NCBI GenBank assembly: GCA_049968235.1
Contig: JBMFRC010000008.1
Span: forward strand, 79,157-143,156
Origin: Candidatus Hydrogenedens sp.
GTDB lineage: Bacteria; Hydrogenedentota; Hydrogenedentia; Hydrogenedentales; Hydrogenedentaceae
Direction: 5' to 3'
Length of the DNA: 64,000 nt
The position numbers were made by a program, and so were the translations under genes. Below the pieces are notes generated by a model that did not search any database, was not told the DNA's origin, and saw nothing but the letters and a program-made list of their open reading frames with translations. Below, in pieces: positions 1 through 28,321 of this stretch. Position 1 is the stretch's first letter; every line of letters starts with the position of its first letter.

Positions 1-726
1 AATCTTGTTGTAATTGAAGATGCCTGTCATGCCTGGGGCGGAGCATGGAAAGGGAAAGGAGCAGGAACATTAGGGCTTGGAGGTGTATTTAGTTTCCAGA
101 TGTCTAAAAATATTACTGCAGGTGAAGGTGGAGCCATTGTTACTGATGATGAAAATTTTGCGGATATATGTCGTTCTATAAGCAATTGTGGTCGCTCAAA
201 AACGGGTCCCTGGTATTATCATGAACGAATTGGGACCAATGTGCGAATGAACGAGTTTACCGCAAATATCCTATTAGCACAGTTATCCCGAGCAGAAAAA
301 CAACTGCAAATTCGAGAAGCAAATGGTACTTATCTTACCCAGGCTTTAATGGATATACCCGGTATTTACCCCCAACCCTTAAGTAATCGCATTACACGAA
401 GGGCATATCATCTTATTTGTATTCGAATCAAAGAGGAAGAGTTTGGTTGTTCTCGAGAATTGTTTGTAAAAGCAGTACATGCGGAAGGATTACCTATAAC
501 ATCAGGTTATCCATATCCGATTTATAAACAGCCTGCATTCCAGAATGCTAACTTTTATGATTATTCACAAACATACTGTCCTATAACAGAAGATTTATGC
601 TATAAGAGTGGTACATGGTTACCCCATCATATTTTACTGGGGAAAGAAAAAGATATGGAAGACATTGTAAAAATTATCCGTAAAGTGCAGAAACATGCTC
701 CGGAATTAAAAAAATTGAATGCTTAA
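1..726 (+). CDS. DegT/DnrJ/EryC1/StrS-family PLP-dependent sugar aminotransferase; 5' end truncated by the window edge
   Basis: The frame is open from base 1 (NLVVIEDACHAWGGAWKGKGAGTLGLGGVFSFQMSKNITAGEGGAIVTDD...). This C-terminal half has the usual DegT family layout and ends at TAA 724-726. Confidence 0.8.
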   Translation, partial: NLVVIEDACHAWGGAWKGKGAGTLGLGGVFSFQMSKNITAGEGGAIVTDDENFADICRSISNCGRSKTGPWYYHERIGTNVRMNEFTANILLAQLSRAEKQLQIREANGTYLTQALMDIPGIYPQPLSNRITRRAYHLICIRIKEEEFGCSRELFVKAVHAEGLPITSGYPYPIYKQPAFQNANFYDYSQTYCPITEDLCYKSGTWLPHHILLGKEKDMEDIVKIIRKVQKHAPELKKLNA

Positions 727-865
727 AATGCCTATCGAACAATTCAGACCTGTCTGATATATTTGACTCGTCAGACTCGTCTGATTTGTTCGACTCATCA
801 TAATTACAAGGAGAGGTCCTATTACGAAGCAATCTTTCTGGATATTATTAATTCTTTTCTTAGGA

Positions 866-3800
866 TTGGGGTTAAGAGTCCTTTACCTTTCCGATGCAAT
901 AAAAAATCCGGATTTTTCAGCACCCCTACACGATGCGGAATTTAAAGATTACTGGGCAAGGGCTATCTTATCCGGTAATTATACACCTCCACGGAATGAA
1001 GGTAATCCATTTATGGAAGGTCATCCCCTTCCCAATCCACCGGGCTATCCCTTATTCCTTGCATTGATTTATTGGTTAACAGAAGGTAGTTATCTCGCCG
1101 TGCGATGGGTTCAAATTTGTATTGGACTTCTTAATATATTCCTTGTGTATCTATTAGGCAAAAACCTCTTTGATTATAAAGCCGGGCTTTTTTCTGCATT
1201 AGGAGTGGCTACCTACTGGGCGTTTGTCCACTATGATATGGAACTTAATCAGGTTACCATCTTTATAACCATAAATTTATTATGTTTCAATTTACTTCTA
1301 CAGGCATATAAAAAAAATAAATTAGGACTACTTTCCTTAGCAGGTCTTATATTCGGGATGGGGGCATGGTTCCGTGGCGAAGTGTTTATTCTCATTTTCC
1401 CGCTAACAATATTTGTTATGTTCCTTTTTTTTCATCCGGGACGGCTAAAAACTGTTTTTTACACAGGATTGTTATTCTTAGTTTCTGCACTACTATCTGT
1501 GCTTCCATTATCTTTATACAATTACTATCTTTGTGGTTCGTTTACTTCAGGCTCACATAATAGCGAATGTAGTATCTCCATCGCTTTTCACCCGGACACA
1601 CCCGAATACGGTTCATATACACCGGAGATGCTTCGATGGCTCAATAAAACGCCTGAGGATACGGTGGAAATATTTGATCTGGACGGAATGACCCTTGGCT
1701 TAGGAAAACAATTAGGATTGGAACGAAGAGCAACTTATAAGGAATGGAAAAATTATCTTATCTCCGGTGCTATACATAATATAAAAACATATCCATGGCT
1801 CAATCTTAAAAAATGCTTAAAACGATTTTTATGGACTTTTTCCCCACAAGAATTGGATGAAAATAAAGTGATTTATTATGAGCGAGAAGTTTCAACAGTA
1901 CTAAAATACTTACCTCGTTTTCCTCTCGCAATGAGTTTATTCACTTTAAGCCTTATTTTACTCGTTATCTCCTTGTCATCAAAAGGGGCTATACCGATAA
2001 AAATAAGCACTTGCTCCTGGAAATTCATATTCGTCTTGTTATTTTTTGTTGCAACAAATATCAGCATTTTTTCGCTTTTGATAGCAGGAAGTCGATATCG
2101 TATATCCCTTCTCCCCTATTTTTTTATTTTTGGTGGTATTGTTTTTTCGTCATTATGGGAAACGGTCTCGAACAAAAGATGGAATTGGGCTACTTTGATT
2201 ATTTTTGGTTTCCTTATTCTTTTTTCGTTAGCCCATGTTCCATTTTTCGATTACCAGCCCAACCGCTCCCGATGGTTAGATGAACGGCGAAAATGTTATC
2301 AGAGAATTGGAAAGATAGCGGAAGGAGTACAATTCTTTGAAAAATGGTTAGAAAAACATTCAGACGCAGATGCTCATTATCACGCGGGGGTCCTTTGTTA
2401 TGAACTCAATGAACTAACAAAGGCAGAAGAACATTTTTATACTTGTCTCAAATTATCACCTGACCATCCATCCGCTCCTTATAATTTAGGTTTGATTTTT
2501 GCAAAAAGAGGTGATTGGGCAAAAGCAGGAAAATATTTTGAGGAAGCCGTAAAAAGAAATCCGAGCAAAGCGGATATGTGGTTCGCATTAGGTTGGGCAA
2601 CTGAAAACAGTGGTGATTTATCTACTGCATTAGAGCATTACACACATGCATTGAATATAAATCCACACCATACTCAGGCATTAAATCATAGTGCCGTAAT
2701 TATGTTTCAAAAAGGGGAAGGAAAAACTGCAAAACAACATCTTGAACAGGCAATTCGCATTGACCCTAACTATGTAGATGCACGATTTAATTTGGGTCAA
2801 ATTCTCTTAGCGGAACGGAAACCTGCAGATGCCTTGAAGCAATTCATGACTGTTAAAGGGAAGTATCAACCGGAACATGAATTATTAAAATGTATAGGAT
2901 TATGTTATGTCCAGATGCTTGATTATAAGGAGGCACTAAATTATCTCTTAAAAGCAAAGGGAATGAACCCCGAGAAATGGGATGCAGAAGATAGTCTTGC
3001 TGTCTGTTACGCAGGATTAGGCATGCGAGAAGAATGTATACGAACAATTGAAATATTAGAGGATAAATTATCTAATTCAATACAGGTTTTTAATTTGGGG
3101 CATGCATGGGAATTACTGGGAGAATGGGATAAAGCAGAAACTTATTATAAAACTGTTATTGAAAAAGATAAAAACAATGCAGATACATACGCAGGATTGG
3201 GAAATATTTCTTTAATTCGTGGGGACAAAAACTCCGCTTACATGTATTTCAAACAGGCATTGGAAATTAACCCACATCAAGTTGGGGCATGGTTCAATTT
3301 AATTTTATCATGGGTAGAAAATCGAGAATGGGAAAAAGCAAAAACACAGTTAATAGAGTTTATAAATTATTATCCCGAACATATAGAGGCATACTATAAT
3401 TTAGGGATTGTAAATGAAGCCTTAGGCAATATTGAGGATGCAAAAAAGTCGTATGAAAAAGTGTTAGAAAAGAAATCAGACCATTCAGGGGCTTTATTCT
3501 CCCGCGCTACTATTGCTTTATCGGAAATGGATTTAGAAAATGCAAAAGAACTATTTGAGAAACTTAAGCCTATTGAACCGTTTAAATCTTTATATCATTT
3601 AGGAATTGTTTATTCATTAAAGGAGGATTGGAACAATGCACATGATTGTTTCTTAAATTCTTTTTTTATAAATCCTCAACCCTTTTATAATGATTATATA
3701 TATGCGTTTAATATCGGTAGAAGTTATGACCATCTTGACTGCTTATATGAGGCGGAGAAATTCTACCGTATTTCTTTTGAATTGAATAATAATTTCGTAG

Positions 3801-4858
3801 ATGCGAAAGATGCCCTCTCTTTTCTTCTTTTTCAACAAGGAAATACAGAAGAAGCATATTTTTTGTTAAATTCTATATTCTTATATCAAAAACCTACGAA
3901 CTGGTCATATTACCACTACTCCCTTGTCTGGGAACACATGAATGAACCCTCAATAGCGTTAAGTTTTGCAGAACAAGCCAATGCGATAATGCCGAATCAG
4001 TCGCCAATCCTTCATCAATTAGGGGGATTATATCGCAAATTGAAAAATTATAATCTCGCCGAACAATATTTAGAGCAGGCAATGACACTTAACCCTCATG
4101 ACGCAACAATTACAAAAACATTAGCCTTTTTACATTCCGACCTTGAGCGGTATAAAGAAGCAAAAGAATTGTTCATAACTTGCACAAATTTGCTTCCTGA
4201 CGACCCGGAGGTGTATGAAGGACTTGCTGATGTCTATATAAAGACCGGCGAATTAAAAAAGGCAGAAGAAAACTATCGCAAAGCATTAGCAATCAAGGAT
4301 ACCCCCACAGTAATTAACAAGTTAGGATTATTACTTGCTGATTTAAATAAAATCTTTGAGAGTGTTGGACTATTGGAAATAGCCGTTAAATACTTTCCGA
4401 ATGATGCCATCACACTTACACGACTTGCTGACTTGAAAGTGATTTTACACTCCGATATAGAAGCAAAAACACTTTATGAACGGGCATTGGCAATAGATAC
4501 TCAAAATTATCTAACTCATAGAAACTATGCAGATTTGTTAGTCCGTTCCGGTGAATATGAACTTGCCGAAAAACATTACAAACTTGCCATAGAACTTCAC
4601 CCCAAAGACCCAGTTGCACAAGCAGGACTGGGATTACTATATGCTCGTATAAATAAATATGAGGAAGCCAAAAAATATTTGATACCTCTGGCACAAGTGA
4701 AGACAGATTTACTTAATGTAAACCAACAACTGACTCAGATATTCCTTTCAGAAAATCAACCTGAAAAAGCCATTAAATACATCAAACGATGTATACTGGC
4801 ACAACCAGACCGAAAAGAATTCCGTGAACTTCTTCAACAGGCTACTCAGATGCGGTAA
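866..4858 (+). CDS. membrane GT-C-fold glycosyltransferase (GT39/PMT_2/ArnT-like) fused to a long TPR-repeat domain, 1330 aa
   Basis: The N-terminal ~480 aa are polytopic membrane protein with ArnT/PMT-like hydrophobic blocks. The remainder is more than 20 TPR-like repeats with recurring A..Y.....LG....G...A motifs. The start is uncertain: the ORF begins at TTG 866 and there is no upstream in-frame ATG before a stop at 782. Confidence 0.7.
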   Translation: MGLRVLYLSDAIKNPDFSAPLHDAEFKDYWARAILSGNYTPPRNEGNPFMEGHPLPNPPGYPLFLALIYWLTEGSYLAVRWVQICIGLLNIFLVYLLGKNLFDYKAGLFSALGVATYWAFVHYDMELNQVTIFITINLLCFNLLLQAYKKNKLGLLSLAGLIFGMGAWFRGEVFILIFPLTIFVMFLFFHPGRLKTVFYTGLLFLVSALLSVLPLSLYNYYLCGSFTSGSHNSECSISIAFHPDTPEYGSYTPEMLRWLNKTPEDTVEIFDLDGMTLGLGKQLGLERRATYKEWKNYLISGAIHNIKTYPWLNLKKCLKRFLWTFSPQELDENKVIYYEREVSTVLKYLPRFPLAMSLFTLSLILLVISLSSKGAIPIKISTCSWKFIFVLLFFVATNISIFSLLIAGSRYRISLLPYFFIFGGIVFSSLWETVSNKRWNWATLIIFGFLILFSLAHVPFFDYQPNRSRWLDERRKCYQRIGKIAEGVQFFEKWLEKHSDADAHYHAGVLCYELNELTKAEEHFYTCLKLSPDHPSAPYNLGLIFAKRGDWAKAGKYFEEAVKRNPSKADMWFALGWATENSGDLSTALEHYTHALNINPHHTQALNHSAVIMFQKGEGKTAKQHLEQAIRIDPNYVDARFNLGQILLAERKPADALKQFMTVKGKYQPEHELLKCIGLCYVQMLDYKEALNYLLKAKGMNPEKWDAEDSLAVCYAGLGMREECIRTIEILEDKLSNSIQVFNLGHAWELLGEWDKAETYYKTVIEKDKNNADTYAGLGNISLIRGDKNSAYMYFKQALEINPHQVGAWFNLILSWVENREWEKAKTQLIEFINYYPEHIEAYYNLGIVNEALGNIEDAKKSYEKVLEKKSDHSGALFSRATIALSEMDLENAKELFEKLKPIEPFKSLYHLGIVYSLKEDWNNAHDCFLNSFFINPQPFYNDYIYAFNIGRSYDHLDCLYEAEKFYRISFELNNNFVDAKDALSFLLFQQGNTEEAYFLLNSIFLYQKPTNWSYYHYSLVWEHMNEPSIALSFAEQANAIMPNQSPILHQLGGLYRKLKNYNLAEQYLEQAMTLNPHDATITKTLAFLHSDLERYKEAKELFITCTNLLPDDPEVYEGLADVYIKTGELKKAEENYRKALAIKDTPTVINKLGLLLADLNKIFESVGLLEIAVKYFPNDAITLTRLADLKVILHSDIEAKTLYERALAIDTQNYLTHRNYADLLVRSGEYELAEKHYKLAIELHPKDPVAQAGLGLLYARINKYEEAKKYLIPLAQVKTDLLNVNQQLTQIFLSENQPEKAIKYIKRCILAQPDRKEFRELLQQATQMR

Positions 4859-6422
4859 CAGTTTTCGGATGGCTTAAAACCCGCTCCAGATAAGGAATCA
4901 GAGTATCCGCCATAATTTTTGCTTTCAGTTTTACCCCTTCCTGACGCATGTGACAAATATCACCGAAATATTTTGTGCCCGCAGGCATATTCTCCGCAAC
5001 CGGAATATAAAGGAGCCCATTATTCTCACAATAATCTCGCAATTGTTGATTAAATCTCTTCATAACATCGGAATATTGCTGAAAAGAGGAATTCGCCCAG
5101 CCCCATTCCTTATCATAATAAAAATCATAATAATCACGTTCCTCCTTGTTTACTTTTTCACGGTAAGGGACACCAATACTGGAAATACACATATCTATAC
5201 CCCTTGACAAAAAAGAATGAAGTATATAATCAATATATCTAAAAATGTATTGATTGATATATTCATCTATCTCTTCTTGCGGATATTGTAAAACTGACCT
5301 TATTTGTCTTCGCATAAATAGAGAGAAAAGTAATGCAATACGTGTTATTACCCGTTTACTATCAAAAGCATGGGAAAATACTTCGTAAACTACATCGTTA
5401 ATTCCTTCATATAAAATCACCATGTCAGGTTGAAAATATAAATAATCCGGTAATTTCGCACAATGCTTCTTTAAAACCATACCAGAAATACCACAATTAA
5501 AGACTTCAATACGATTTTCTCCGAAATGTTTTTTCAATTCTTGCTCTAAGAATTTTGGATAGGTCTCTTGATTAGAAATACCCTCTTCCGTAGTAGACGC
5601 ACCAATACACAGGATGCGGAAAACTCCTTCGGGTTTCGGAACCTTAAAATCTTTATCTCTATAACCAAAATTATTGATTCGAAATGCCATCTCTGTAGAG
5701 TTCCGATGAGGCATATAGGAGAAATAATTTATGTCCCATAAGTCATTCACAGATAACTTTCCTACCCATGGATTGATAGAATCATTTTTCCCTCTATACG
5801 GTAGAGCAAACACATAGAAAGAGTAATTTTCAAGATTTTCGCGTAAAGGGTAGAAAAAAAATTTATATGGTTTTTCCTGCATCGTCTCATGCCATAAAAA
5901 AGCCCTATATGATTGAAACATATCCTTCGGAATTGTCTTTATAATTTCTTGATATATCAACAGATTGTCATTAATCCCAAAAGCCTTATCTGTGGGAGAA
6001 CACGTTATATCAAAACTTTTTTTATTAATGTTGAGTTTGAACTGCTTTATGTCATAAATAGTTCGGAAAGCCTCCTGAAAAGTTTCATCCTCATCAAAAT
6101 AGAAGTTAAAACGATAACTCCACATTTCTAATGGGTCGGGCTCTGGCAGACACCATTCATCGCCAACATATAATTGTTGCAGAGAAAACAAATTTTTCCC
6201 CTCCCCATAATGAACTCCTTCTTCTTTACCCTCGTCCCATTCCTTTATTAACAATTCACCACGACGGATACGAACAAATTTGTTTGTCTTTTCGATATAT
6301 TTCCACCTTAATCGTTCAAATAATTCTAGAGATAAACAGATGACAATAAACCAGAATAAAATGAAAAAACAATAACCCAAGATATAAACAAATCTCTTCG
6401 TTTTTTTGTGCTTCAACTCCAT
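4842..6422 (-). CDS. SGNH/GDSL-family hydrolase-like protein with N-terminal TM anchor
   Basis: Block I FRILCIGASTTEEG, block II NCGISGMV, block III EGINDVVY, block V GDICHMRQEG; the catalytic Ser/Asp/His are present. There is a single N-terminal hydrophobic helix. It is a paralog of 6422..7900. Confidence 0.6.
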   Translation of the reverse strand: MELKHKKTKRFVYILGYCFFILFWFIVICLSLELFERLRWKYIEKTNKFVRIRRGELLIKEWDEGKEEGVHYGEGKNLFSLQQLYVGDEWCLPEPDPLEMWSYRFNFYFDEDETFQEAFRTIYDIKQFKLNINKKSFDITCSPTDKAFGINDNLLIYQEIIKTIPKDMFQSYRAFLWHETMQEKPYKFFFYPLRENLENYSFYVFALPYRGKNDSINPWVGKLSVNDLWDINYFSYMPHRNSTEMAFRINNFGYRDKDFKVPKPEGVFRILCIGASTTEEGISNQETYPKFLEQELKKHFGENRIEVFNCGISGMVLKKHCAKLPDYLYFQPDMVILYEGINDVVYEVFSHAFDSKRVITRIALLFSLFMRRQIRSVLQYPQEEIDEYINQYIFRYIDYILHSFLSRGIDMCISSIGVPYREKVNKEERDYYDFYYDKEWGWANSSFQQYSDVMKRFNQQLRDYCENNGLLYIPVAENMPAGTKYFGDICHMRQEGVKLKAKIMADTLIPYLERVLSHPKTVTASE

Positions 6423-7900
6423 TAACTTTTTCCTGATTGTGCTTTAATATATTTCACCAAATATGGTGTCGCTAATTCTGATTTTTTTCGAATTCCTTGT
6501 AATTTTTGATGACATAAATCATTAAAATAGGATGGGGATTCGTTCTGAAACATTTCATACATCGGGATATATAGAACATTCTCATTATTAAACTTTTTGC
6601 TTAACAGTCTATTATATACATCCAGAACATGGCTATACATACGATAGTTTACGAAATTACCTCCCCACCATCTTTTTGTAACAAACTGGAAATAATCTTT
6701 CTCCTGCCATGTCATCGAGGAATAATTGGGGGCTGGCATACTCATTACTGCAAACAATATACCTTTCTGCTGAAGATAATTGTTTATTTTTTCTATCTGG
6801 CTTAATATATCTTTATTAATATCACTTTGTATTTGTATGTCGTTGGGAAGAAAGAATAGGGGAAAAATATTCCGGCATAAATTTGAATGGATAAGTATTT
6901 TTTTTATTCCGTTCAGATGATTTAACCAGTAAGGCAGTAAAATGTGGGTTATATCATTTGCCCCTTCACAATAGAGAACAAGATTTGGTTCCATCAACAG
7001 ATAATCTGGTAATCTCAGCCATAATTTATGAGCAGAAATGCCCGGTATTCCAGCATTAATCACTTCAATTTTATATTGTTGCTGGAATTGTTCCAATAAA
7101 AGTTTTTCCATGATATTTGGATAGGTTTCTTGCTCTGTAGGACCCTCTTCTGTGGTCGAACCACCGATACATACAATTCGGAACACACCTAATGGTTTAG
7201 GAACTACCACATCCTCATCACGAAATCCAAAATTGTTCGTATGAAATTCATAAGAGTTCAATTGTGCATGTTTCTTATACTCAAAATAAGGTATTTCCCA
7301 GATTCCGTTTCTATCCTTTATATTTCGGGGATAATTATTATTACCTGCTTTATACCAGCATACCATGACCCCACGATTTTTCGTGTCCATTTTATAATAA
7401 ACAAAAAGGTCGGAAATACTTTCCTCACCTTTTGCAAAAGAATGATAATATTTTGAATAAACTTCCTGGCTTTGAATTGGTATTTCCTTCTCTAATATAT
7501 TTATCAGTTCTTCATCAAAGTAATTTTTCGTAGTGGGTTCAGGCAGGTATGTAATTATCTCTTTTTTATCCATATCTTTTACAAGGGTGGTTATTTGATA
7601 AAAAGAAGAAAACAATTGTCTGTCGGTTTCATCCAATTGTAAGAAAAACTTTGCCCGATTGGCATACCATTGAGACATATCAGGAGAGTGAAACTTTTCT
7701 ACAGATTGCAGTGGTTTTTGCGACACAACTTCACTGTGGCTCCATGGAGGTTTATCATTCAAAGAGGAGATGAGAGGATTCTTTTGTATAACAAGATATT
7801 CATATATACGCACTACACATTCAGCAACTGCAATTGCAACAATAATCCAGAGAAAAAAAATCAATATTTTACCGATACTTTTTACGAAATGATATTTCAT
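6422..7900 (-). CDS. SGNH/GDSL-family hydrolase-like protein, a paralog of the previous gene
   Basis: FRIVCIGGSTTEEG, NAGIPGISAH, CEGANDITH, NDLCHQKLQG. There is an N-terminal TM helix. The stop and start abut the neighbouring genes, which suggests operon organisation. Confidence 0.6.
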   Translation of the reverse strand: MKYHFVKSIGKILIFFLWIIVAIAVAECVVRIYEYLVIQKNPLISSLNDKPPWSHSEVVSQKPLQSVEKFHSPDMSQWYANRAKFFLQLDETDRQLFSSFYQITTLVKDMDKKEIITYLPEPTTKNYFDEELINILEKEIPIQSQEVYSKYYHSFAKGEESISDLFVYYKMDTKNRGVMVCWYKAGNNNYPRNIKDRNGIWEIPYFEYKKHAQLNSYEFHTNNFGFRDEDVVVPKPLGVFRIVCIGGSTTEEGPTEQETYPNIMEKLLLEQFQQQYKIEVINAGIPGISAHKLWLRLPDYLLMEPNLVLYCEGANDITHILLPYWLNHLNGIKKILIHSNLCRNIFPLFFLPNDIQIQSDINKDILSQIEKINNYLQQKGILFAVMSMPAPNYSSMTWQEKDYFQFVTKRWWGGNFVNYRMYSHVLDVYNRLLSKKFNNENVLYIPMYEMFQNESPSYFNDLCHQKLQGIRKKSELATPYLVKYIKAQSGKS

Positions 7901-10113
7901 TGAGGTGCCGGGAAGGTTTGCTGAGGGTTATTTTTCAGTCGCTCCAATTCCGTGGCAGGACGAAGGTCTGTGGGGTCAAGTTCTATCGCTTTCTGAAAAT
8001 ATTCAATTGCTTTCTCATGATTTCCTAACCCTAAATATGCCCTACCCATACAGGTATGAGCAAATGAATCATTGGGTAATAATTGAAATGCCTTTTCCAA
8101 CGCTGAAATAGCTGATTCATATTGCCCTCGATTAATGTGAATATCAGCAATATTAATCCAGTTCCATGGGTATTGTTCCGGTTTCAATTCAACAGCCTTT
8201 GTAAACGCTTCGATGGCAAGGTCCCATTCCTGTAATTCTTTATAGGACATTCCAAGATAGGAGTATGCCTGTGCATAACCGGGGTCAAGTTGAATCACAT
8301 GTTTGCAGGTATCAACTGCAGACCAATAATCGTTAACTCGCCAGAATTCCAGAGCCATAGCACATAAATCTTCTAATAAGGCTACCGATTTCTTGTTGTA
8401 CGTTTTCACAGAGTCCTGTAAAGAAAATATCTGGTGGTAAACAACCACTCGCTGAATGCCAGCAAATTCCTCTGCTTTGTAAATAATCCCTTTTTCCTTT
8501 AAATATTTTTCAAAATGATAAAGCGGTGCAGACTCAAAATAATCCCCCTGAACAACAATCCATAATTTTGCATTGGGTCTTCGTACTGGCAACAGTTTTG
8601 TAATCAGAAATTCAGCAATTTCGGCAGTATTCTCAAACTGCGAACCATAACAAACAACATTGGGCACAGGACCTAAATTGTATAGGAAAACACGCTTCCA
8701 TAATTCATTGTTTACAAGGATAATGTCTTCCGCTTTTGCATTATGCTTGATAAATACACCTGCATTCTTCCAATCGGTGTGTTGCGGTTTCCCGAGGATT
8801 AAACTACCCTGGTACAAATACAAAAGTAGAAATGCGGTAAAGAGCAGTCGTTTTACCCATTTCTTACTTTCCACGCTATTAATAGTATAGCCAATAATCA
8901 GATACAGGGCAATCGAACTATGGAGAGTATATCTTGGCATAATACAGGGTCGCCATAAGTGCGAAATAAAGTATAAAAATAAAGGAGGAAATAGCCACCA
9001 GATACAATAGAGCAGGATAAAAGAATTATTTGTTTTTCCAATATTATTCGACTTTAATTCCTTATTATCTTTTTCCCTGAAAAAATAAGTCCAGATAGCC
9101 CCGACAAGGCAAAAGACATATAAAACTGCCATTACCCCCCCTATAAAATATTGCTGTGATACAATAATCCGTGCAGTTTCTTTGCTAAAAAAATGCATCC
9201 AGAAATCGGGTTCCGCACGAAGTTGGTAAGTCCAACCAATACAATCATCGGCAACAAGGTCGCCTATAAATTCACGGAGTGTCGGTATCTTCATCCAGGA
9301 AGAGGTCATATCCGGCGACCAAAAATTAATAGTTAGAATATACAACACAGAAGGTAGTGAAATAAGGAACAGAGGAATAGCCCATTTCATCAGAAAAAGG
9401 ATTTCTTCCCTCAAATAATCTTTATAAAACCACTCATTCGGTCTCCCATTGCGGTATCTCCAGGCACGAATGAGCAATCGGTCTACCAGTAAATATACCC
9501 CCTGAACCATAACAACCAGAGTCGCAAAGGGATGTGTCCAGAGAAGGAGAAATGTGATGATAAGGTAATAGATAAATGTTCTTCGTCTCTGTTCGCGATA
9601 CCAATATATAAAAAAAAGCATGGACAGAATAGATAGGAGGGTGAACAAACTATACATTCGTATCTCCTGTGAAAACTGCCGATGTATAGGCGACAGAGCC
9701 ACGAGAAGACAGGCAATAAGCCCCGTAGAAGCATTAAAACTTATATTTCCTAAAATGTATGTGCTATAAATAACCGTCAATCCAATAAAGACCGAAAGAA
9801 GACGGAGAGAATAATATGATTCATCAATATAGGTATGCCAAAAATATTCAATAGAATAATATAAAGGCATGGTAGCAGGGTCCATAGAGCGATTCTTTAT
9901 CAAGAAATGCAGGATATTCATTGAAGGTTCATAATGAACACCCTGAGCCCAACGCGTAAAATTCGGCGAAGATTCATACTCAGCCAGCGGTTTCAGGTGA
10001 ACAACACTACTAAATTCGTCCCACCATATAGATTCGTAACTTAAACCTACAGAACGATATAAATAACCTGCAAGTAAAATTAAAAATAAATATAGAAATA
10101 CTTTTGAATTCAT
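7897..10113 (-). CDS. membrane GT-C-fold glycosyltransferase (ArnT/PMT-like) with C-terminal TPR repeats, 738 aa
   Basis: The N-terminal ~520 aa are multi-TM with ArnT/PMT-like loops. The C-terminal ~200 aa carry TPR repeats (…YAQAYSYLGMSYKELQEWDLAIEAFTKAVELKP…). Confidence 0.7.
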   Translation of the reverse strand: MNSKVFLYLFLILLAGYLYRSVGLSYESIWWDEFSSVVHLKPLAEYESSPNFTRWAQGVHYEPSMNILHFLIKNRSMDPATMPLYYSIEYFWHTYIDESYYSLRLLSVFIGLTVIYSTYILGNISFNASTGLIACLLVALSPIHRQFSQEIRMYSLFTLLSILSMLFFIYWYREQRRRTFIYYLIITFLLLWTHPFATLVVMVQGVYLLVDRLLIRAWRYRNGRPNEWFYKDYLREEILFLMKWAIPLFLISLPSVLYILTINFWSPDMTSSWMKIPTLREFIGDLVADDCIGWTYQLRAEPDFWMHFFSKETARIIVSQQYFIGGVMAVLYVFCLVGAIWTYFFREKDNKELKSNNIGKTNNSFILLYCIWWLFPPLFLYFISHLWRPCIMPRYTLHSSIALYLIIGYTINSVESKKWVKRLLFTAFLLLYLYQGSLILGKPQHTDWKNAGVFIKHNAKAEDIILVNNELWKRVFLYNLGPVPNVVCYGSQFENTAEIAEFLITKLLPVRRPNAKLWIVVQGDYFESAPLYHFEKYLKEKGIIYKAEEFAGIQRVVVYHQIFSLQDSVKTYNKKSVALLEDLCAMALEFWRVNDYWSAVDTCKHVIQLDPGYAQAYSYLGMSYKELQEWDLAIEAFTKAVELKPEQYPWNWINIADIHINRGQYESAISALEKAFQLLPNDSFAHTCMGRAYLGLGNHEKAIEYFQKAIELDPTDLRPATELERLKNNPQQTFPAPQ

Positions 10114-10249
10114 ACCTAAGTTTTCGTTATCGCTTTATAGCCAAATCTTTTTATACCTCAAATTATTTATAATAACATATCATAATAAGGATTGAATATT
10201 TGATGAACGCATAATAGATGCTTTTTAATTAAACCTATGGAGTACGCCG

Positions 10250-11467
10250 ATGCGATCGTTTTTAAAAAATATATTATTAGCATTAGGGTCAATACTTGTG
10301 GTTCTTATATTGACCATGGTATTGGACCGACTGTTAGGGAACATCCTGCCCAAGCCATTTCCTGAAGGCACACATGATTTAATTTTTCCTCCCTTATCGC
10401 GACAGGAATTCGCCTCAGTTGATTTTAAATATGTGGTAGAAACTAATTCATTAGGGATTCGGGACCGAGAAATACAAAGACCTAAAAGCAGTAATAGTTA
10501 CCGCATCATAGCAGTTGGTGATTCCTATACTTACGGTTGGGGCGTGAATATTGAGGAAACCTGGCTCCGTGGACTGGAACAAAAACTGTTATTGGAGAAC
10601 AAACAGATTGAAACTGTGAATTTAGGCAAACCCGGGACAGGTCCTCCTTTCTATGCAGAAATTACCCGCACTATTGTCCCCTTACTTGAACCCGATTTGA
10701 TACTGGTCGGAATTTTACAGGGAAACGATATTGCTTCTTCAGGAACGGAAGGGTTAGAGCAAATGAGTTCGGGATTGGTCCGCTGGACAAAATTATTTTA
10801 CCCAAACTTTGTCCGTACAGTAGAAATGATGCAATTGACGCGTTCTCTTGAAACGCGGACACAGGAGCGACCCCCAGAAAAAACAACCGCAGAAGACAAC
10901 GCAAAATGGTCTGCCAATACCGCAAAGGATTTTTATGAAAAAATGTCCGCAGAGGAAAAACAAAGATTTGATAATTTCGATGCCGAAGTAAAACAAGCAT
11001 TTTTTGATGGGCTATTAAATCCTTATATGATTGACCTTGCATTGAAGAACAAACACATTTATACACTAACATTAAACCCTGATGACCCATGGATTCAGCA
11101 ATGTATTGGGAATATGGCAAAAGCATTACAAATCATAAAATCGGTAGCAAGTCAAAACGATGCTCAAGTTGCTGTCGTTAGTATCCCGGATGGCCCGTAT
11201 GTGAATGAGGTTGCATGGAAAAATATTCAGCGTGTTGGATTCGATGTAGTTCCAGACATGCTAACTTCCGATGCACCCGATAAAGTTATTCAGATTGCTT
11301 GTGAAAAGGTAGGTATCCCCTGTTATACCGTCTCCTTTGCATTTCGCCAGAGAAAACAAGACCCCAACTTGTTCTTTACACTGGATGGGCATTTGACCGC
11401 TGAAGGACATAAATTATTAGCAGAGACGCTTGCTCCTCAACTACAGAAGTGGCTAACCAAAAAATGA
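10250..11467 (+). CDS. SGNH/GDSL-family hydrolase with N-terminal TM/signal anchor
   Basis: YRIIAVGDSYTYGWGV (GDS block), NLGKPGTG, LQGNDIAS (GxND), DGHLTAEGH (DxxH). It ends at TGA 11465-11467. Confidence 0.6.
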   Translation: MRSFLKNILLALGSILVVLILTMVLDRLLGNILPKPFPEGTHDLIFPPLSRQEFASVDFKYVVETNSLGIRDREIQRPKSSNSYRIIAVGDSYTYGWGVNIEETWLRGLEQKLLLENKQIETVNLGKPGTGPPFYAEITRTIVPLLEPDLILVGILQGNDIASSGTEGLEQMSSGLVRWTKLFYPNFVRTVEMMQLTRSLETRTQERPPEKTTAEDNAKWSANTAKDFYEKMSAEEKQRFDNFDAEVKQAFFDGLLNPYMIDLALKNKHIYTLTLNPDDPWIQQCIGNMAKALQIIKSVASQNDAQVAVVSIPDGPYVNEVAWKNIQRVGFDVVPDMLTSDAPDKVIQIACEKVGIPCYTVSFAFRQRKQDPNLFFTLDGHLTAEGHKLLAETLAPQLQKWLTKK

Positions 11468-12618
11468 ATAAAACAACAATACAAAAAAATATAAGCAAGA
11501 AAAAAATTGTTCTATTTACCTTTTTACCCCTCGCTATCTTACTTTTTAGCCTGGAACTGATAGCACGAATCATAGAGATATGGCTTCCTCCTATGGTGAC
11601 AGATATCGGTTTAGGTTTTACAGAAGATTCCCGATTATTTATCCCTGACCCTTATGACAGCCGATATTTGATAACACATCCCAATAAGACTGTTGCTTTT
11701 CAAAATCAACGATTTCTAAAAAACAAACCATCAGGAACTTTACGCATATTTTTTCTCGGAGGTTCCTCTGTAAATTATGTTAACTACGAATTGCCAAATT
11801 TATCCGAACGATTGGAAGAAACACTTAAACCAAGATACAAAGAAGTCGAGATTATTAATTGTGGGGGACTTTCGTACGGGACACATCGACTTGTATTGAT
11901 TGCTCGTGAGATTGTGAACTATAACCCTGACCTTGTAATGATATATTCCGGACATAATGAATTTGAAGAAATTGAACAATTACATTTAGCACGAGTGCAA
12001 ATAACGAAATTACAACGGGTTTTGTTCTCCTCCGCAATGATGCGATTTATTCGCGACCGAATCGCAACCTACCAGATATCCCAATTGGAAAAAGAGCATA
12101 ATCGCAGAATGTTGGCTCAATCATTACCCGATGCAGGTAAAGGATGGAATCATATTTTCACACCCCAGGAAATTGCAGAACGAATGGAAAAATACAAAAA
12201 TAATCTCAACGAAATTATACAGTTATGTAAAGAGAAAAATATAAAAGTCGTTATTGCAACCGTTCCTTCAAACTATATAAAGCCCAATTTAATAGGGAAA
12301 ACTGCAGAAGAATATGAACAAGTGTTGCAGTTAATTAAAGAAGAGAAATATAAAAAAGCGTATGAATTAGGTAGGAAAATTATTCGTGAAACTTCGCCAC
12401 GACATCAATCTTCCGACCTTGAAAATAACATTGTGCGAGAACTCGCAGAGAAACATCATATTCCTCTGGCTGATGTTTTATCTGCAGTAGAGCGGGCAGA
12501 ACCCCACCACATTCCCGGTGAAACTTTGTTTAATGACCATTGTCACTTAAATCCAGAAGGCAATAGTATTATGATACATACATTTGAGGAAAAAATCTTA
12601 CAGGTATTGGCAGAATAA
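11449..12618 (+). CDS. SGNH/GDSL-family hydrolase-like protein
   Basis: LRIFFLGGSSVNY, NCGGLSYGTHR, YSGHNEFEE, FNDHCHLNPEGN. The true start is probably ATG 11464, which overlaps the upstream TGA as ATGA. Confidence 0.55.
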   Translation: MANQKMNKTTIQKNISKKKIVLFTFLPLAILLFSLELIARIIEIWLPPMVTDIGLGFTEDSRLFIPDPYDSRYLITHPNKTVAFQNQRFLKNKPSGTLRIFFLGGSSVNYVNYELPNLSERLEETLKPRYKEVEIINCGGLSYGTHRLVLIAREIVNYNPDLVMIYSGHNEFEEIEQLHLARVQITKLQRVLFSSAMMRFIRDRIATYQISQLEKEHNRRMLAQSLPDAGKGWNHIFTPQEIAERMEKYKNNLNEIIQLCKEKNIKVVIATVPSNYIKPNLIGKTAEEYEQVLQLIKEEKYKKAYELGRKIIRETSPRHQSSDLENNIVRELAEKHHIPLADVLSAVERAEPHHIPGETLFNDHCHLNPEGNSIMIHTFEEKILQVLAE

Positions 12619-12677: not shown

Positions 12678-14684
12678 TTATTGGGGGGTAAGTTTTAATA
12701 AAGCGACACCATGACGGGGAATAGATGTGGAGAAACCTTTTTGGTAAACTCCCAAATCCTTTTGTCTCCATAAATCCCTGACTTTTTGATTTTCTACCAG
12801 TCCCAATTCCTTCCATTGTACGGCTACATTTTGTTCAATCTCATCCAGATTAAACAAACCTATAGCAGTGGAACCATCGAAAAGTGACTTTAACCATATT
12901 TCATAACATTTTTCTTTATTAATAATTATAGGATGTCCTTGAATACCCTTTGAATCCTGATTAATTTCGATAACTTCAGGATTACAGAGCACATTTTTTG
13001 TAAATTCATCCAATCGAGTCATATCTCCACTATAAAAAAGAGGAGAAGCCATAAGACACCATAAAGACATGTAAGAATATTGTTCACTAGGAGTTAGGGG
13101 GCAGGATTTAGGCTCACCCATCACACTGGCATCTCCGCTATAACCGATGAGAATATAATCTGGGTCATTCCATGCACCGGGACCTGCATATTCCCAGTAT
13201 CGAGCGTTTCTGCGTGCGACCTCATGATATTGTAATAACTCAAAACCGAGGTCGCCCGCTGTTCGCCAGCAATTTCCACCCACTTCTTTACCCCATTTCC
13301 AGACCTGTCCCATACCATACTGACACAAGTTAAAGACAATATCGCGGTCTAATTTCTTTAAGATAACTCCCATTTCTCTATAAGGTTTCTTTAGATTCTC
13401 AATTTTTTTTGGGGATAGGATATCTGTATAAGAACACCAGTCATATTTCAAAAAATCGAAACCCCAGTCTGCAAATTGTTTGGCATCTTGTTCCTCATGT
13501 CCATAGGTTCCTGTAAAGCCAGCACAGGTTTTAGGTCCCGGTGAGGTATATATGCCTGCACGAAGCCCTTTAGAATGAATATATGCCGTTAATCCCTTCA
13601 TATCAGGAAAGTATTTGTTGGGTAGAATATTCCCACTATCATCTCGTGCAGGACCGACACGCATCGGGTCACGATGATTTTCTGCATTTGCCCAGCAATC
13701 GTCAATACTTACATACTGGTAACCTACATCTGCCATACCGGATGAAACCATCAGGTCCGCAGATTGTTTCATTATATCCTCCGTAATTCTATCGTAATGT
13801 GTATACCAATGATTCCAGCCCATTGGGGGTGTTAATGCCAGTGTATCTCCAACCACAATATTTAAATAATTCTGGTCGCTACCATATTGGTTTTGTGCCA
13901 CGATTTTAACTGTATAGTTCTTCGGTTCACGACTTATAATAGTCCCATGTATAATTCCATCCGGGTCCACCGTTAATCCTTCAGGTAAACCTTCTAATTG
14001 AAACTGTATAGGTCTTTCTCCTGTACAGGGAATACGGAATATAAAAGGAGAGCCTGGTCGAACACCCGTAACACGCGGGCTATTTATTCTCGGAGAACGA
14101 GCGGGTGTCGGAGTAAGAATATAAGTTTCCTCTTCTGGTTTCATTACAAGTTCTGGTTTTCTCTCTGTCATTATAAAAACCGCTTCTGCTATATCGACAT
14201 GGTCATAAGAAATATCATCATAAGCATCATTAATAGAAATAGTGAAATAGGATATTCCCCGTAAATCAATAGAAACTTTTTCGGGTTCTTCTCCTCCTTT
14301 AAAAGTTCGCGTTGCATATAACAATTTGTTATCACCAAAAAATCGGGCGATTATAGACCCATTCCCTTCTGTTTCATCATCAACTCCTATAATGGCTTCA
14401 AATTTTGATGCATAACCATTGAGTTGAACATAGAAAACCACATTTGCATGTGTGCCAACACCACGATTATATATTGTTCCATGTAATTTTATCGGATTTC
14501 CCTGACAGGATAGATTTTTTTTAGGATGTTCTGCCCAGCCTTGTTTAACAATTTTCAAGTTCAGGTCATCTAAATATGTTATAGCCTCCTCGCAGTAACT
14601 ATTCCATATACAAAAAAACGCAATACAAATTACAGAGATGAATACAAATAGATGGAACTTGAAATTTGATGGAGCAAAAAACAT
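12678..14684 (-). CDS. GH27 alpha-galactosidase with N-terminal NPCBM-type carbohydrate-binding domain; secreted
   Basis: Signal peptide. An NPCBM-like block lies near the N-terminus. GH27 signatures are present: PPMGWNHWY, SIDDCWA, FLKYDWC. Confidence 0.8.
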   Translation of the reverse strand: MFFAPSNFKFHLFVFISVICIAFFCIWNSYCEEAITYLDDLNLKIVKQGWAEHPKKNLSCQGNPIKLHGTIYNRGVGTHANVVFYVQLNGYASKFEAIIGVDDETEGNGSIIARFFGDNKLLYATRTFKGGEEPEKVSIDLRGISYFTISINDAYDDISYDHVDIAEAVFIMTERKPELVMKPEEETYILTPTPARSPRINSPRVTGVRPGSPFIFRIPCTGERPIQFQLEGLPEGLTVDPDGIIHGTIISREPKNYTVKIVAQNQYGSDQNYLNIVVGDTLALTPPMGWNHWYTHYDRITEDIMKQSADLMVSSGMADVGYQYVSIDDCWANAENHRDPMRVGPARDDSGNILPNKYFPDMKGLTAYIHSKGLRAGIYTSPGPKTCAGFTGTYGHEEQDAKQFADWGFDFLKYDWCSYTDILSPKKIENLKKPYREMGVILKKLDRDIVFNLCQYGMGQVWKWGKEVGGNCWRTAGDLGFELLQYHEVARRNARYWEYAGPGAWNDPDYILIGYSGDASVMGEPKSCPLTPSEQYSYMSLWCLMASPLFYSGDMTRLDEFTKNVLCNPEVIEINQDSKGIQGHPIIINKEKCYEIWLKSLFDGSTAIGLFNLDEIEQNVAVQWKELGLVENQKVRDLWRQKDLGVYQKGFSTSIPRHGVALLKLTPQ

Positions 14685-19172: not shown

Positions 19173-19195
19173 ATAATTAAGCGAGCAAGTAGTGT

Positions 19196-26020: not shown

Positions 26021-26179
26021 AAAAAACTTCTCCTTTTACTAATTTTTTGAAACAGGAATAGGTAGTAGTATATTTTATCCTAATATAAGAGATTATAAAA
26101 GGTAAGCCTCTTACTCCTTAAATTTTAACATTTGTGTAGAAAAAAGAGAAACCACGTTTTCAATGCTTTACTGGTATAA

Positions 26180-27040
<861 letters not shown>

Positions 27041-28235: not shown

Positions 28236-28321
28236 ATCCTTTTTATATATTTTTTGTTATATAACAATATTTAATATTAATTCTAACTCGTTTAAATGTA
28301 AAACGAAGAAAGGGATGAATT

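What the first reader, a model, noticed from the sequence alone, without database searches (positions are those of the whole stretch)
1..12618. Surface-glycan modification cluster: DegT aminotransferase, two GT-C/TPR fusion glycosyltransferases and four tandemly arranged SGNH-hydrolase paralogs
Two large membrane GT-C-fold (ArnT/PMT-like) proteins are each fused to a TPR array, of more than 20 repeats in the 1330-aa protein. They bracket two pairs of SGNH/GDSL proteins (4842-7900 on the minus strand, 10250-12618 on the plus strand). All four SGNH proteins keep the Ser/Gly/Asn/His blocks and most have an N-terminal membrane anchor. A DegT-type amino-sugar aminotransferase lies upstream. TPR-GT-C fusions are thought to use the TPR part to select protein or glycan acceptors. 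Four anchored SGNH enzymes alongside suggest O-acyl (acetyl) modification or de-acylation of a glycan or lipoglycan in the periplasm. The pairs with ~35% identity imply old duplications with sub-functionalisation. The substrate is unknown.
Basis: partly seen in the sequence, partly recalled or inferred. Interest (0 to 1): 0.55.

Follow-up and report, generated by a model that had tools for sequence, protein, structure and literature searches.

The report
Conserved periplasmic glycan-tailoring gene module
In an uncultured Hydrogenedens bacterium, a membrane sugar-transferase fused to a TPR domain is always encoded beside three or four membrane-anchored esterase-like enzymes; the unit is conserved across the phylum, most likely decorates a cell-envelope glycan outside the inner membrane, is built from familiar parts, and its substrate is unknown.

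Summary
The region encodes a truncated DegT aminotransferase, two GT-C/TPR fusions and four anchored SGNH proteins that keep full catalytic blocks.

Corrections:
- Pair identities are 28% and 23%, not about 35%.
- The SGNH genes form two tandem pairs on opposite strands, and only one pair lies between the GT-Cs.
- The larger GT-C probably starts at ATT 821, which restores its first membrane helix.

New findings:
- The window comes from a Candidatus Hydrogenedens MAG.
- A core of SGNH-B (one or two copies), the 738-aa GT-C/TPR, SGNH-A and SGNH-A2 recurs in at least 23 Hydrogenedentota genomes, with translationally coupled genes.
- Neighbouring donor-synthesis genes vary between genomes: DegT plus the giant GT-C, a GT2-GtrA polyprenyl-phosphate-sugar synthase, or UbiA plus a DprE1-like gene.
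- The GT-C model matches ALG12, Pmt4 and ArnT.
- SGNH-A carries the AlgX/AlgJ-type D-x-H-x-T-x-x-G catalytic half. SGNH-B resembles carbohydrate acetylesterases and has a PAS-like N-domain.
- No MBOAT or AT3 acyl translocase is linked, so de-O-acylation is more likely than acetyl transfer.
- Four flagellin genes lie just upstream of the window, but that linkage is not conserved.

Verdict: an uncharacterised variant of known periplasmic glycosylation and tailoring systems. Interest is moderate.

The parts
1..726 (+). C-terminal 241 aa of a DegT/DnrJ/EryC1 PLP aminotransferase (full length 403 aa; the gene starts upstream of the window). An accessory gene of the Hydrogenedens-clade version of the module.
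   Evidence: Pfam PF01041 E 2e-51. No NCBIfam equivalog reached: the best is PseC at 109 bits against a cut-off of 423. The full gene is seen in L003, L005, L088 and L090 next to the giant GT-C.
821..4858 (+). Giant GT-C (PMT_2) glycosyltransferase fused to about 20-24 TPRs. Called as 866-4858 (1330 aa); the probable true start is ATT 821 (1345 aa), which restores TM1. The TPR array lies at about 2291-4684.
   Evidence: PMT_2 56.7 bits plus many TPR families. 20 TPRs detected. The frame is open from 785, AAGGAGAGG lies at 808-816, and the orthologue N-terminus carries TM1. 8-9 hydrophobic helices. It belongs to a different GT-C subfamily from the 738-aa protein (HMM score 35).
4842..6422 (-). 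SGNH-B' (526 aa): N-terminal TM anchor, PAS-like alpha/beta domain (about res 97-250), then an SGNH domain with catalytic Ser276 (5595-5597) and Asp488/His491 (4950-4961).
6422..7900 (-). SGNH-B (492 aa), a paralogue of the 526-aa protein (28% identity) with the same architecture. Translationally coupled on both sides.
   Evidence: BLASTP E 8e-59. Lipase_GDSL_2 32.6 bits. Junctions caATGAaa at 7897-7900 and TAATG at 6422. Many genomes have only one B copy.
7897..10113 (-). Core GT-C glycosyltransferase (738 aa): about 11 TM helices (res 1-440), a periplasmic alpha/beta domain (448-565), and 4 TPRs plus a cap (585-728; DNA 7969-8361 for the four TPRs at residues 585-715). The invariant D32-E33 motif is at 10015-10020.
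10114..10249 (.). AT-rich, 136-bp divergent intergenic region between the GT-C738 operon and the SGNH-A operon. Inferred to be a shared promoter region.
   Evidence: Sequence read. The divergent layout is conserved in all core loci. The consensus promoter scan was uninformative.
10250..11467 (+). SGNH-A (405 aa): N-terminal TM anchor, G90-D91-S92 block I (Ser codon 10523-10525), a roughly 110-aa helical insert, and a C-terminal half with an AlgX/AlgJ-type D379-G-H381-L-T-x-x-G386 motif (11384-11407). The most conserved member of the module.
   Evidence: Lipase_GDSL_2 33.2 bits. Invariants in 54 homologues. Profile against PDB: N-terminal half matches canonical SGNH esterases at 1e-6; C-terminal half matches AlgX at 5e-5 and AlgJ at 6e-3, with the DxH motifs aligned. 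PF16822 in a few homologues. 965 50%-identity clusters at E<=1e-30.
11464..12618 (+). SGNH-A2 (384 aa from ATG 11464; listed as 389 aa from GTG 11449): TM anchor and a GxSS / CGG / HNE / DxCH catalytic set. Translationally coupled to SGNH-A.
   Evidence: Lipase_GDSL_2 37.3 bits. 23% identity to SGNH-A. Motifs at least 95% conserved in 27 orthologues. ATGA overlap. The orthologue is called at 384 aa with a 4-bp overlap in L088.

Best explanation
This is a periplasm-facing tailoring module for an envelope glycan (LPS-like or capsular/exopolysaccharide), conserved across Hydrogenedentota.

Proposed steps:
1. Inferred: a sugar is made in the cytoplasm. In this clade it is an amino sugar made through DegT. 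It is loaded on polyprenyl phosphate by a GT2-GtrA-type synthase, which is encoded next to the module in other genomes but not in this window, and is then flipped.
2. Fold and motif shown, chemistry inferred: the 738-aa GT-C uses its D32-E33 loop at the outer face of the inner membrane to transfer that sugar to the acceptor. The acceptor is held by the periplasmic alpha/beta and 4-TPR domains.
3. Topology, catalytic residues and co-inheritance shown, activity inferred: the three to four SGNH enzymes tethered to the same membrane work on the same substrate. They most likely remove O-acyl groups, or shuffle them, so that the acceptor hydroxyl is freed or the product is matured. SGNH-A/A2 is an AlgJ/AlgX-like pair. 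SGNH-B/B' are carbohydrate-esterase-like enzymes with a PAS-like binding domain.
4. The giant TPR GT-C adds a second, clade-specific decoration.
For: - GT-C fold and DE motif.
- All closest solved relatives use polyprenyl-phosphate- or polyprenyl-diphosphate-linked donors (ALG12, Pmt4, ArnT, PglB).
- The core is conserved with translational coupling in at least 23 genomes.
- Interchangeable donor-synthesis neighbours: GT2+GtrA_DPMS_TM in L004, L006, L018, L019 and L021; UbiA+FAD_binding_4/ALO in L018/L019; DegT+GT-C1345 in the Hydrogenedens clade.
- SGNH-A paralogues elsewhere again sit beside GT2-GtrA, PMT_2 GT-Cs, carbamoyltransferases, GT4 and LptFG.
- All four SGNH proteins are N-in/C-out and catalytically intact.
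- SGNH-A shares the AlgX/AlgJ catalytic half.
- SGNH-B is nearest to carbohydrate acetylesterases.
- No MBOAT or AT3 is linked, which favours hydrolysis.
- L004 carries Wzy_C-TPR, GT4 and heparinase II/III nearby.
- A preprint (10.64898/2026.07.15.738315) reports that GT-Cs commonly depend on partner proteins.
Against: - No biochemical data exist, and the acceptor is unknown.
- The polyprenyl-phosphate-sugar synthase is not in this 64-kb window.
- Flanking genes of the core are otherwise unrelated housekeeping genes rather than a classical O-antigen or EPS cluster.
- The TPR domain resembles peptide-binding 3-TPR modules, and the W-D-E-F motif resembles the PMT 'FDEVHF' motif (from memory). 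Both would fit a protein acceptor.
- The best structural match of SGNH-B is a peptide-cleaving SGNH, CgnD.
Confidence: 0.5

Rival explanations
1. It is a protein O-glycosylation system of the PMT/TMTC type. The GT-C/TPR enzymes glycosylate secreted or envelope proteins recognised by the periplasmic TPRs. The anchored SGNH proteins are partner subunits or editing enzymes.
For: - The architecture of a GT-C followed by extracytoplasmic TPRs equals that of TMTC1-4. Prokaryotic full-length homologues of TMTCs are known but uncharacterised (PMC7801869).
- The DE motif is invariant.
- GT-Cs often need protein partners.
Against: - There is no MIR domain, and no Pfam hit to the TMTC-specific domain.
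- The SGNH partners point to carbohydrate or ester chemistry: an AlgX/AlgJ motif and acetylxylan-esterase-like fold.
- No candidate acceptor protein is conserved in the locus.
Confidence: 0.2
2. It is an Arn-like LPS/lipid A remodelling system. DegT corresponds to ArnB, GT2-GtrA to ArnC, and the GT-Cs to ArnT, adding an amino sugar to lipid A or core. The SGNH enzymes would be inner-membrane LPS O-deacylases or acyl-editing enzymes.
For: - The DegT family includes ArnB.
- GT2+GtrA neighbours occur in other genomes.
- An SGNH-A paralogue follows LptF/LptG in L035, and LptF_LptG appears twice among neighbours.
- The module is phylum-wide, as expected for a core envelope lipid.
Against: - No ArnA or ArnD equivalents are present.
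- DegT scores far below the ArnB model (68.6 against 631 bits).
- ArnT-type enzymes lack TPRs.
- The SGNH proteins are closer to carbohydrate esterases and AlgX than to AOAH.
Confidence: 0.15
3. It is a flagellin glycosylation island. DegT and the TPR glycosyltransferases modify the four flagellins encoded immediately upstream.
For: - Four tandem 271-aa flagellin genes plus FlaG lie just upstream of DegT in this genome (L003) and in a 65%-identity relative (L088).
- The best NCBIfam match of DegT is PseC, of the pseudaminic-acid pathway.
- TPR-bearing flagellin glycosyltransferases are known (general knowledge).
Against: - Flagellin is glycosylated in the cytoplasm before export, whereas GT-C active sites and the SGNH domains face the periplasm.
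- L005 and L090 keep DegT, GT-C1345 and the core without any flagellin gene.
- About 20 other genomes keep the core with no flagellin within 10 kb.
- The PseC score is far below its cut-off (109 against 423 bits).
Confidence: 0.05
4. The SGNH proteins are ordinary membrane-bound lipases or lysophospholipases, functionally unrelated to the neighbouring glycosyltransferases.
For: Sources name homologues 'lysophospholipase L1-like esterase'. The Pfam hit is only the generic Lipase_GDSL_2 family. TesA and lysophospholipase structures appear among weak profile hits.
Against: - Overlapping start and stop codons link them to the GT-C gene.
- The gene order is conserved down to about 40% identity in at least 23 genomes.
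- SGNH-A paralogues are again linked to glycan genes.
- The C-terminal half is homologous to AlgX/AlgJ.
Confidence: 0.08

Closest known systems
Three-component periplasmic glycosylation systems (GtrA/GtrB/GtrC; ArnC/ArnE-F/ArnT; CsbB/YfhO)
   Same: A GT-C enzyme with an acidic motif in its first outer loop. In sister genomes, a GT2 fused to a GtrA_DPMS_TM domain lies directly beside the core.
   Different: Here the GT-C carries a periplasmic alpha/beta domain plus TPRs and is fixed to three or four anchored SGNH genes. The GT2 gene is absent from this window. No such SGNH partners are described for Gtr or Arn systems (literature searches).
TMTC1-4 (eukaryotic GT-C + TPR protein O-mannosyltransferases) and their uncharacterised prokaryotic homologues
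   Different: There is no sequence-level assignment to the TMTC family. The 738-aa protein has only 4 TPRs and an extra alpha/beta domain. The acceptor is unknown, and TMTCs have no SGNH partners.
AlgJ/AlgX (with AlgI/AlgF) alginate O-acetylation machinery, and related PatA/PatB and WssH/WssI systems
   Same: A pair of SGNH-like proteins acts at the periplasmic face, one of them a type-II anchored protein. SGNH-A shares the VVV-x-x-P...VN and D-x-H-x-T-x-x-G segments with AlgX and AlgJ. In alginate, Pel and PGA systems, periplasmic TPR proteins scaffold such enzymes (general knowledge).
   Different: In SGNH-A the catalytic Ser precedes the DxH motif (canonical SGNH order), rather than following it as in AlgX/AlgJ. 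No MBOAT (AlgI/PatA) or AlgF is linked. The partner is a GT-C, not a GT2 synthase.
Carbohydrate esterases of the SGNH fold (CE2/CE3/acetylxylan esterases; the peptidoglycan O-acetylesterase Ape1)
   Different: SGNH-B is membrane-anchored, its N-domain is PAS-like rather than a beta-sandwich CBM, identity is only 15-20%, and it is encoded in an operon with a GT-C.

Membership tests
GT-C fold glycosyltransferases (ArnT/PMT type; Pfam PMT_2, CAZy GT39/GT83-like) | Polytopic membrane domain (11-13 TM helices) structurally superposable on solved GT-Cs | tested here: met
GT-C fold glycosyltransferases (ArnT/PMT type; Pfam PMT_2, CAZy GT39/GT83-like) | Conserved acidic (DE / DxD) motif in the first extracytoplasmic loop | tested here: met
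   D32-E33 are invariant in 62 homologues of the 738-aa protein. The 1345-aa protein has H-D-A-E just after the restored TM1.
GT-C fold glycosyltransferases (ArnT/PMT type; Pfam PMT_2, CAZy GT39/GT83-like) | Family HMM score above the curated threshold | tested here: inconclusive
   1330-aa ORF: PMT_2 56.7 bits against 26.1, met. 738-aa protein: 21.6 bits, below the cut-off, although most of its homologues carry PF13231 and one is named GT39 by NCBI. No CAZy assignment could be run.
GT-C fold glycosyltransferases (ArnT/PMT type; Pfam PMT_2, CAZy GT39/GT83-like) | Use of a polyprenyl-phosphate-linked sugar donor | not testable with these tools
   Only context is available: GT2+GtrA_DPMS_TM or UbiA/DprE1-like genes lie next to the core in other genomes.
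SGNH/GDSL hydrolase superfamily | Blocks I (GxS), II (G), III (GxN) and V (DxxH or DxH) with the Ser/Asp/His triad | tested here: met
   All four proteins keep the blocks. They are invariant in the family alignments: A2 (G274, S276, N309, G311, N342, D488, H491), A4 (G90, D91, S92, N124, G126, D379, H381) and SGNH-A2 (G116, S118, G151, N182, D375, H378).
SGNH/GDSL hydrolase superfamily | Three-layer alpha/beta/alpha SGNH fold | tested here: met
AlgX/AlgJ-type polysaccharide O-acetyltransferases (Pfam PF16822) | D-x-H-W-T-x-x-G catalytic segment | tested here: met
   SGNH-A D379-G-H381-L-T-x-x-G386 aligns to AlgX GDQHWTPYG / GDHHWTPHG and AlgJ TDTHWTPMG. E 4.6e-5 (AlgX) and 6e-3 (AlgJ).
AlgX/AlgJ-type polysaccharide O-acetyltransferases (Pfam PF16822) | Permuted order: the DxH motif precedes the nucleophilic Ser in the sequence | tested here: not met
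   In SGNH-A, Ser92 (GDS) lies about 290 residues before D379/H381. The N-terminal half matches canonical SGNH esterases. The AlgX residue order is taken from general knowledge.
AlgX/AlgJ-type polysaccharide O-acetyltransferases (Pfam PF16822) | Linked membrane acyl translocase (MBOAT AlgI/PatA or an AT3 domain) | tested here: not met
   No MBOAT or Acyl_transf_3 family is shared by two or more of the 94 proteins flanking core loci or the 83 proteins next to SGNH-A paralogues; each scan listed only its 25 most frequent families. The only recurrent polytopic proteins are the GT-Cs and GT2-GtrA. The rest of the genome was not searched.
AlgX/AlgJ-type polysaccharide O-acetyltransferases (Pfam PF16822) | Match to the family HMM | tested here: not met
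   The window protein has no PF16822 hit at E<=0.01. Only 3 of 120 homologues carry it.
Gtr/Arn-like three-component glycosylation system | GT2 polyprenyl-phosphate sugar synthase, a flippase (GtrA-like) and a GT-C encoded together | tested here: inconclusive
   A GT-C is present. No GT2-GtrA is found in the 64-kb window (HMM search), but a GT2+GtrA_DPMS_TM fusion is adjacent to the same core in L004, L006, L018, L019 and L021 and to SGNH-A in L026, L032 and L033.
TMTC-like protein O-mannosyltransferases | GT-C domain followed by extracytoplasmic TPR repeats | tested here: met
   Both proteins have this order. An odd helix count places the C-terminus outside (inferred).
TMTC-like protein O-mannosyltransferases | Sequence membership in the TMTC family and a protein Ser/Thr acceptor | not tested
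   No TMTC-specific Pfam domain appeared among the listed hits; only the best 25 of 37 families were shown for the large protein. Acceptors cannot be tested in silico.
Flagellin glycosylation island | Conserved linkage to flagellin genes and a cytoplasmic glycosyltransferase | tested here: not met
   Flagellins are adjacent only in L003 and L088, and absent in L005, L090 and about 20 other core loci. The transferases are GT-C enzymes with periplasm-facing sites.

The most novel reading that the evidence does not exclude
The core is a new kind of envelope-tailoring machine. A GT-C glycosyltransferase would use its periplasmic TPR domain to dock two pairs of membrane-tethered SGNH enzymes. These would form an acyl relay that works without any MBOAT or AT3 translocase, for example by taking acyl groups from phospholipids or from the lipid-linked donor. 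Glycosylation and O-acylation of a phylum-specific envelope polymer or protein would then be coupled in one complex. SGNH-A would represent the unpermuted ancestor-like form of the AlgX/AlgJ acetyltransferases.
Probability: 0.15. Interest if true: 0.7.

Novelty: new variant of a known kind. Interest (0 to 1): 0.4.

Why it matters
Hydrogenedentota have almost no cultured members, and nothing is known about their envelope.

- A gene unit kept across the phylum, coupling a lipid-linked-sugar transferase to dedicated esterase-like enzymes, is a concrete handle on that envelope.
- It also bears on the large, uncharacterised class of prokaryotic GT-C/TPR fusions, the bacterial counterparts of human TMTC enzymes.
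- The SGNH-A family has about 965 50%-identity clusters and occurs in several phyla. It links canonical SGNH esterases to the permuted AlgX/AlgJ acetyltransferases, and could clarify how those transferases arose.
- It may also show whether periplasmic O-acyl editing can run without an MBOAT partner.

None of this is surprising in kind. Its value is as a defined, testable module.

Tried and rejected
- Foldseek against PDB was swamped by TPR hits.
- Rfam found no RNA family in the window.
- The sigma-70 promoter and terminator scan found fewer sites than shuffled controls and said nothing about operon boundaries. Operon structure instead rests on overlapping start and stop codons.
- Literature searches for SGNH with GT-C, TPR or undecaprenyl found no description of such a module. 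The Hydrogenedentes-glycosyltransferase search gave only ecological papers.
- The flagellin-glycosylation idea raised by L003 was tested against L005, L088 and L090 and rejected as non-conserved.
- A linked acyl translocase (MBOAT/AT3) was looked for in flanks and among polytopic ORFs, and not found.
- A GT2-GtrA gene was looked for in the whole window, and not found.
- NCBIfam gave no equivalog for any of the seven proteins.
- Window ORFs between 40 and 64 kb were not scanned with Pfam.

Full report
**What is there**

- The C-terminal 241 aa of a DegT-family aminotransferase lie at 1-726 (+).
- A 1330-aa PMT_2 GT-C fused to a long TPR array lies at 866-4858 (+).
- Two SGNH genes lie on the minus strand: 4842-6422 (526 aa) and 6422-7900 (492 aa).
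- A 738-aa GT-C/TPR lies at 7897-10113 (-).
- Two SGNH genes lie on the plus strand: 10250-11467 (405 aa) and 11449-12618 (389 aa).

Downstream genes are unrelated: an NPCBM alpha-galactosidase, dUTPase, GDPD and so on. NCBIfam assigns none of the proteins to a named equivalog.

The 526/492 pair is 28% identical (E 8e-59). The 405/389 pair is only 23% identical (E 7e-5).

All four SGNH proteins keep blocks I, II, III and V. All four have one N-terminal hydrophobic helix behind a K/R-rich N-terminus, which predicts an N-in, catalytic-domain-out topology.

Only the first SGNH pair lies between the two GT-Cs. The second pair is transcribed divergently from the 738-aa GT-C.

**Gene-model corrections**

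The 1330-aa ORF begins right at the acidic loop and lacks the first TM helix that its orthologue in L005 has. The frame is open back to 785. It contains no ATG, GTG or TTG, but it does have AAGGAGAGG (808-816) followed by ATT at 821. That start would add 'ITKQSFWILLILFLGLG', the missing TM1, giving a 1345-aa protein.

The fourth SGNH gene most likely starts at ATG 11464, which forms an ATGA overlap with the stop of the 405-aa gene. The L088 orthologue is called the same way.

The junctions caATGAaa (7897-7900) and TAATG (6422) show translational coupling of GT-C738, SGNH-B and SGNH-B'.

**Source and surroundings**

Exact-sequence look-ups place the window in a Candidatus Hydrogenedens MAG, GCA_049969095.1. 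Upstream of window position 1 lie the rest of DegT (403 aa), a DUF1318 gene, FlaG and four tandem 271-aa flagellin genes (L003).

**The conserved unit**

I used context look-ups, a scan of one genome per GTDB species with the SGNH-A alignment, and local HMM mapping of the fetched loci. Together these show a core of [SGNH-B, one or two copies]-[GT-C738], transcribed divergently from [SGNH-A]-[SGNH-A2].

This core occurs in at least 23 species-level Hydrogenedentota genomes, at 40-90% protein identity. What sits beside the core changes between genomes:
- DegT plus the giant GT-C/TPR in the Hydrogenedens clade (L003, L005, L008-L010, L012, L013, L088, L090).
- A GT2 fused to a GtrA_DPMS_TM domain, the architecture of polyprenyl-phosphate-sugar synthases (L004, L006, L018, L019, L021).
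- UbiA plus an FAD_binding_4/ALO (DprE1-like) gene, recalling the decaprenyl-phosphate-arabinose route (L018/L019).
- Another DegT plus an ATP-grasp gene (L030, L048).

Beyond that, the flanks are not conserved. Flagellins accompany the cluster only in L003 and L088. L005 and L090 keep DegT, GT-C1345 and the core without them. I therefore regard the flagellin adjacency as clade-local synteny.

**The GT-Cs**

With a 62-sequence alignment, AF2 models the 738-aa protein at pLDDT 93. The model has about 11 TM helices (1-440), a periplasmic alpha/beta domain (448-565), and four TPRs plus a capping helix (585-728).

The giant protein belongs to a different PMT_2 subfamily (HMM cross-score 35). It has 20 detectable TPRs, with gaps that suggest about 24.

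Prokaryotic GT-C+TPR proteins are noted in the literature as uncharacterised full-length homologues of TMTCs (PMC7801869).

Distant homologues of GT-C738 (about 32% identity) sit in large glycan clusters. These hold DegT, a carbamoyltransferase, GATase/HisF, B12-radical-SAM enzymes, a GT2 and further PMT_2/TPR genes, but no SGNH.

**The SGNH proteins**

*SGNH-B' (526 aa).* It models at pLDDT 88 as a TM anchor, a PAS-like alpha/beta domain (about residues 97-250) and an SGNH domain. PF08448 is recorded for some homologues.
- GxSTTEEG, NxG, ND and DxxH are invariant in 65 homologues.
- The sequence profile hits acetylxylan esterases.

*SGNH-A (405 aa).* It is the best conserved member of the module.
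- Its N-terminal half matches canonical SGNH esterases.
- Its C-terminal 110 residues match AlgX (E 5e-5) and AlgJ.
- The alignment places the invariant D379-G-H381-L-T-x-x-G386 on the AlgX/AlgJ catalytic 'D-x-H-W-T-P-x-G' segment.
- Because Ser92 precedes this motif, SGNH-A has the unpermuted order.

*SGNH-A2.* It keeps GxSS, CGG, HNE and DxCH in 27 orthologues.

*The wider SGNH-A family.* It comprises about 965 50%-identity clusters at E<=1e-30. It extends to Acidobacteriota, Planctomycetota, Verrucomicrobiota and others. There its immediate neighbours are enriched for other GDSL genes (9 of 83), carbamoyltransferases (5), GT2-GtrA, GT4, PMT_2 GT-Cs and LptF/G.

**What is missing**

No MBOAT or AT3 family is shared by two or more of the 94 proteins flanking core loci or the 83 proteins next to SGNH-A paralogues. 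The only recurrent polytopic membrane proteins are the GT-Cs and GT2-GtrA. No GT2-GtrA gene lies in this 64-kb window.

**Most likely mechanism**

- Shown: GT-C fold and catalytic motif; SGNH catalytic sets; predicted outward topology; operon coupling; phylum-wide co-inheritance; alternating donor-synthesis neighbours.
- Inferred, glycosylation: a polyprenyl-phosphate-linked sugar (in this clade an amino sugar made through DegT) is transferred by GT-C738 at the periplasmic face onto an envelope glycan held by its alpha/beta and TPR domains.
- Inferred, acyl editing: the tethered SGNH enzymes edit O-acyl groups on the same substrate. Without a linked acyl translocase, hydrolytic de-O-acylation or transacylation from a periplasmic donor is more likely than AlgI/PatA-style acetylation.
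- Acceptor: I favour a glycan or lipoglycan. The reasons are the AlgX/AlgJ homology, the carbohydrate-esterase-like fold, the carbamoyltransferase, GT4 and Lpt neighbours, and the Wzy_C-TPR and heparinase genes in L004.
- Rivals: a protein acceptor (TMTC/PMT-like, with a peptide-type TPR) and an Arn-like lipid A modification remain serious alternatives. A flagellin-glycosylation role and 'unrelated lipases' are unlikely.

**Comparison with known systems, and novelty**

The parts are all known kinds. The module works like a Gtr/Arn-type three-component glycosylation system joined to AlgJ/AlgX- or Ape/Pat-type O-acyl editing, with a TMTC-like GT-C/TPR architecture.

It is not a member of the AlgX/AlgJ family: the order is not permuted, there is no MBOAT, and the window protein does not hit PF16822. 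It is not a flagellin glycosylation island.

The fixed association of a GT-C/TPR with three or four anchored SGNH paralogues was not found in the searchable literature. I class it as a new variant of a known kind, of moderate interest (0.4). It is a clean, testable module in an uncultured phylum rather than a surprising mechanism.

Noticed in passing
window 785-866: The giant GT-C/TPR gene appears to use a non-canonical ATT start at 821, after AAGGAGAGG at 808-816. Standard gene calls start at TTG 866 and cut off the first transmembrane helix that orthologues possess.
   Followed up: partly
L003 1496-5531 (directly upstream of window position 1): Four tandem 271-aa flagellin genes plus FlaG and a DUF1318 gene precede DegT. 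The same order occurs in L088, but not in L005 or L090.
   Followed up: yes
window 17088-20362: A 694-aa protein fuses 4Fe-4S ferredoxin motifs and an Fe-only-hydrogenase large-subunit domain to HisKA/HATPase. It may be an H2- or redox-sensing histidine kinase. A response-regulator/histidine-kinase hybrid follows it.
   Followed up: no
window 26001-28300: A low-GC stretch (0.298, against about 0.38 elsewhere) holds an N6/N4 DNA methylase (26213-27040) and a 295-aa ORF with no Pfam match (27348-28235). It may be an acquired restriction-modification island.
   Followed up: no
window 12678-14684: A putatively secreted alpha-galactosidase with NPCBM and He_PIG domains lies immediately after the module. 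It is syntenic in L088 but not in more distant genomes, so it is probably not part of the module.
   Followed up: partly
L018 12501-15565; L019 8145-9557: A DprE1-like FAD_binding_4/ALO gene follows SGNH-A2 in both genomes, with a UbiA prenyltransferase-family gene confirmed next to it in L018. This hints at a polyprenyl-phosphate pentofuranose donor route like the mycobacterial DPA pathway.
   Followed up: partly
L062, L074, L075, L077, L078 (genes next to SGNH-A homologues): Outside Hydrogenedentota (Planctomycetota, Acidobacteriota, Verrucomicrobiota), SGNH-A homologues repeatedly neighbour a roughly 600-aa NodU/CmcH-type carbamoyltransferase.
   Followed up: partly
L091 / L092 (whole loci): Distant homologues of the 738-aa GT-C lie in large clusters with LPG_synthase_TM, two B12-radical-SAM enzymes, a carbamoyltransferase, GATase+HisF, a GT2 and two more PMT_2/TPR genes. 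An alpha/beta-hydrolase esterase takes the place of the SGNH genes.
   Followed up: no
window 10250-11467 (SGNH-A residues 180-290): A conserved helical insert of about 110 residues lies between SGNH block III and the AlgX-like half (consensus ...AEDNRRW..NTAK.FL.KM.PE.RARF...LNPYMIDLA...). It has no assigned function and could be a lid or a membrane- or lipid-binding element.
   Followed up: no
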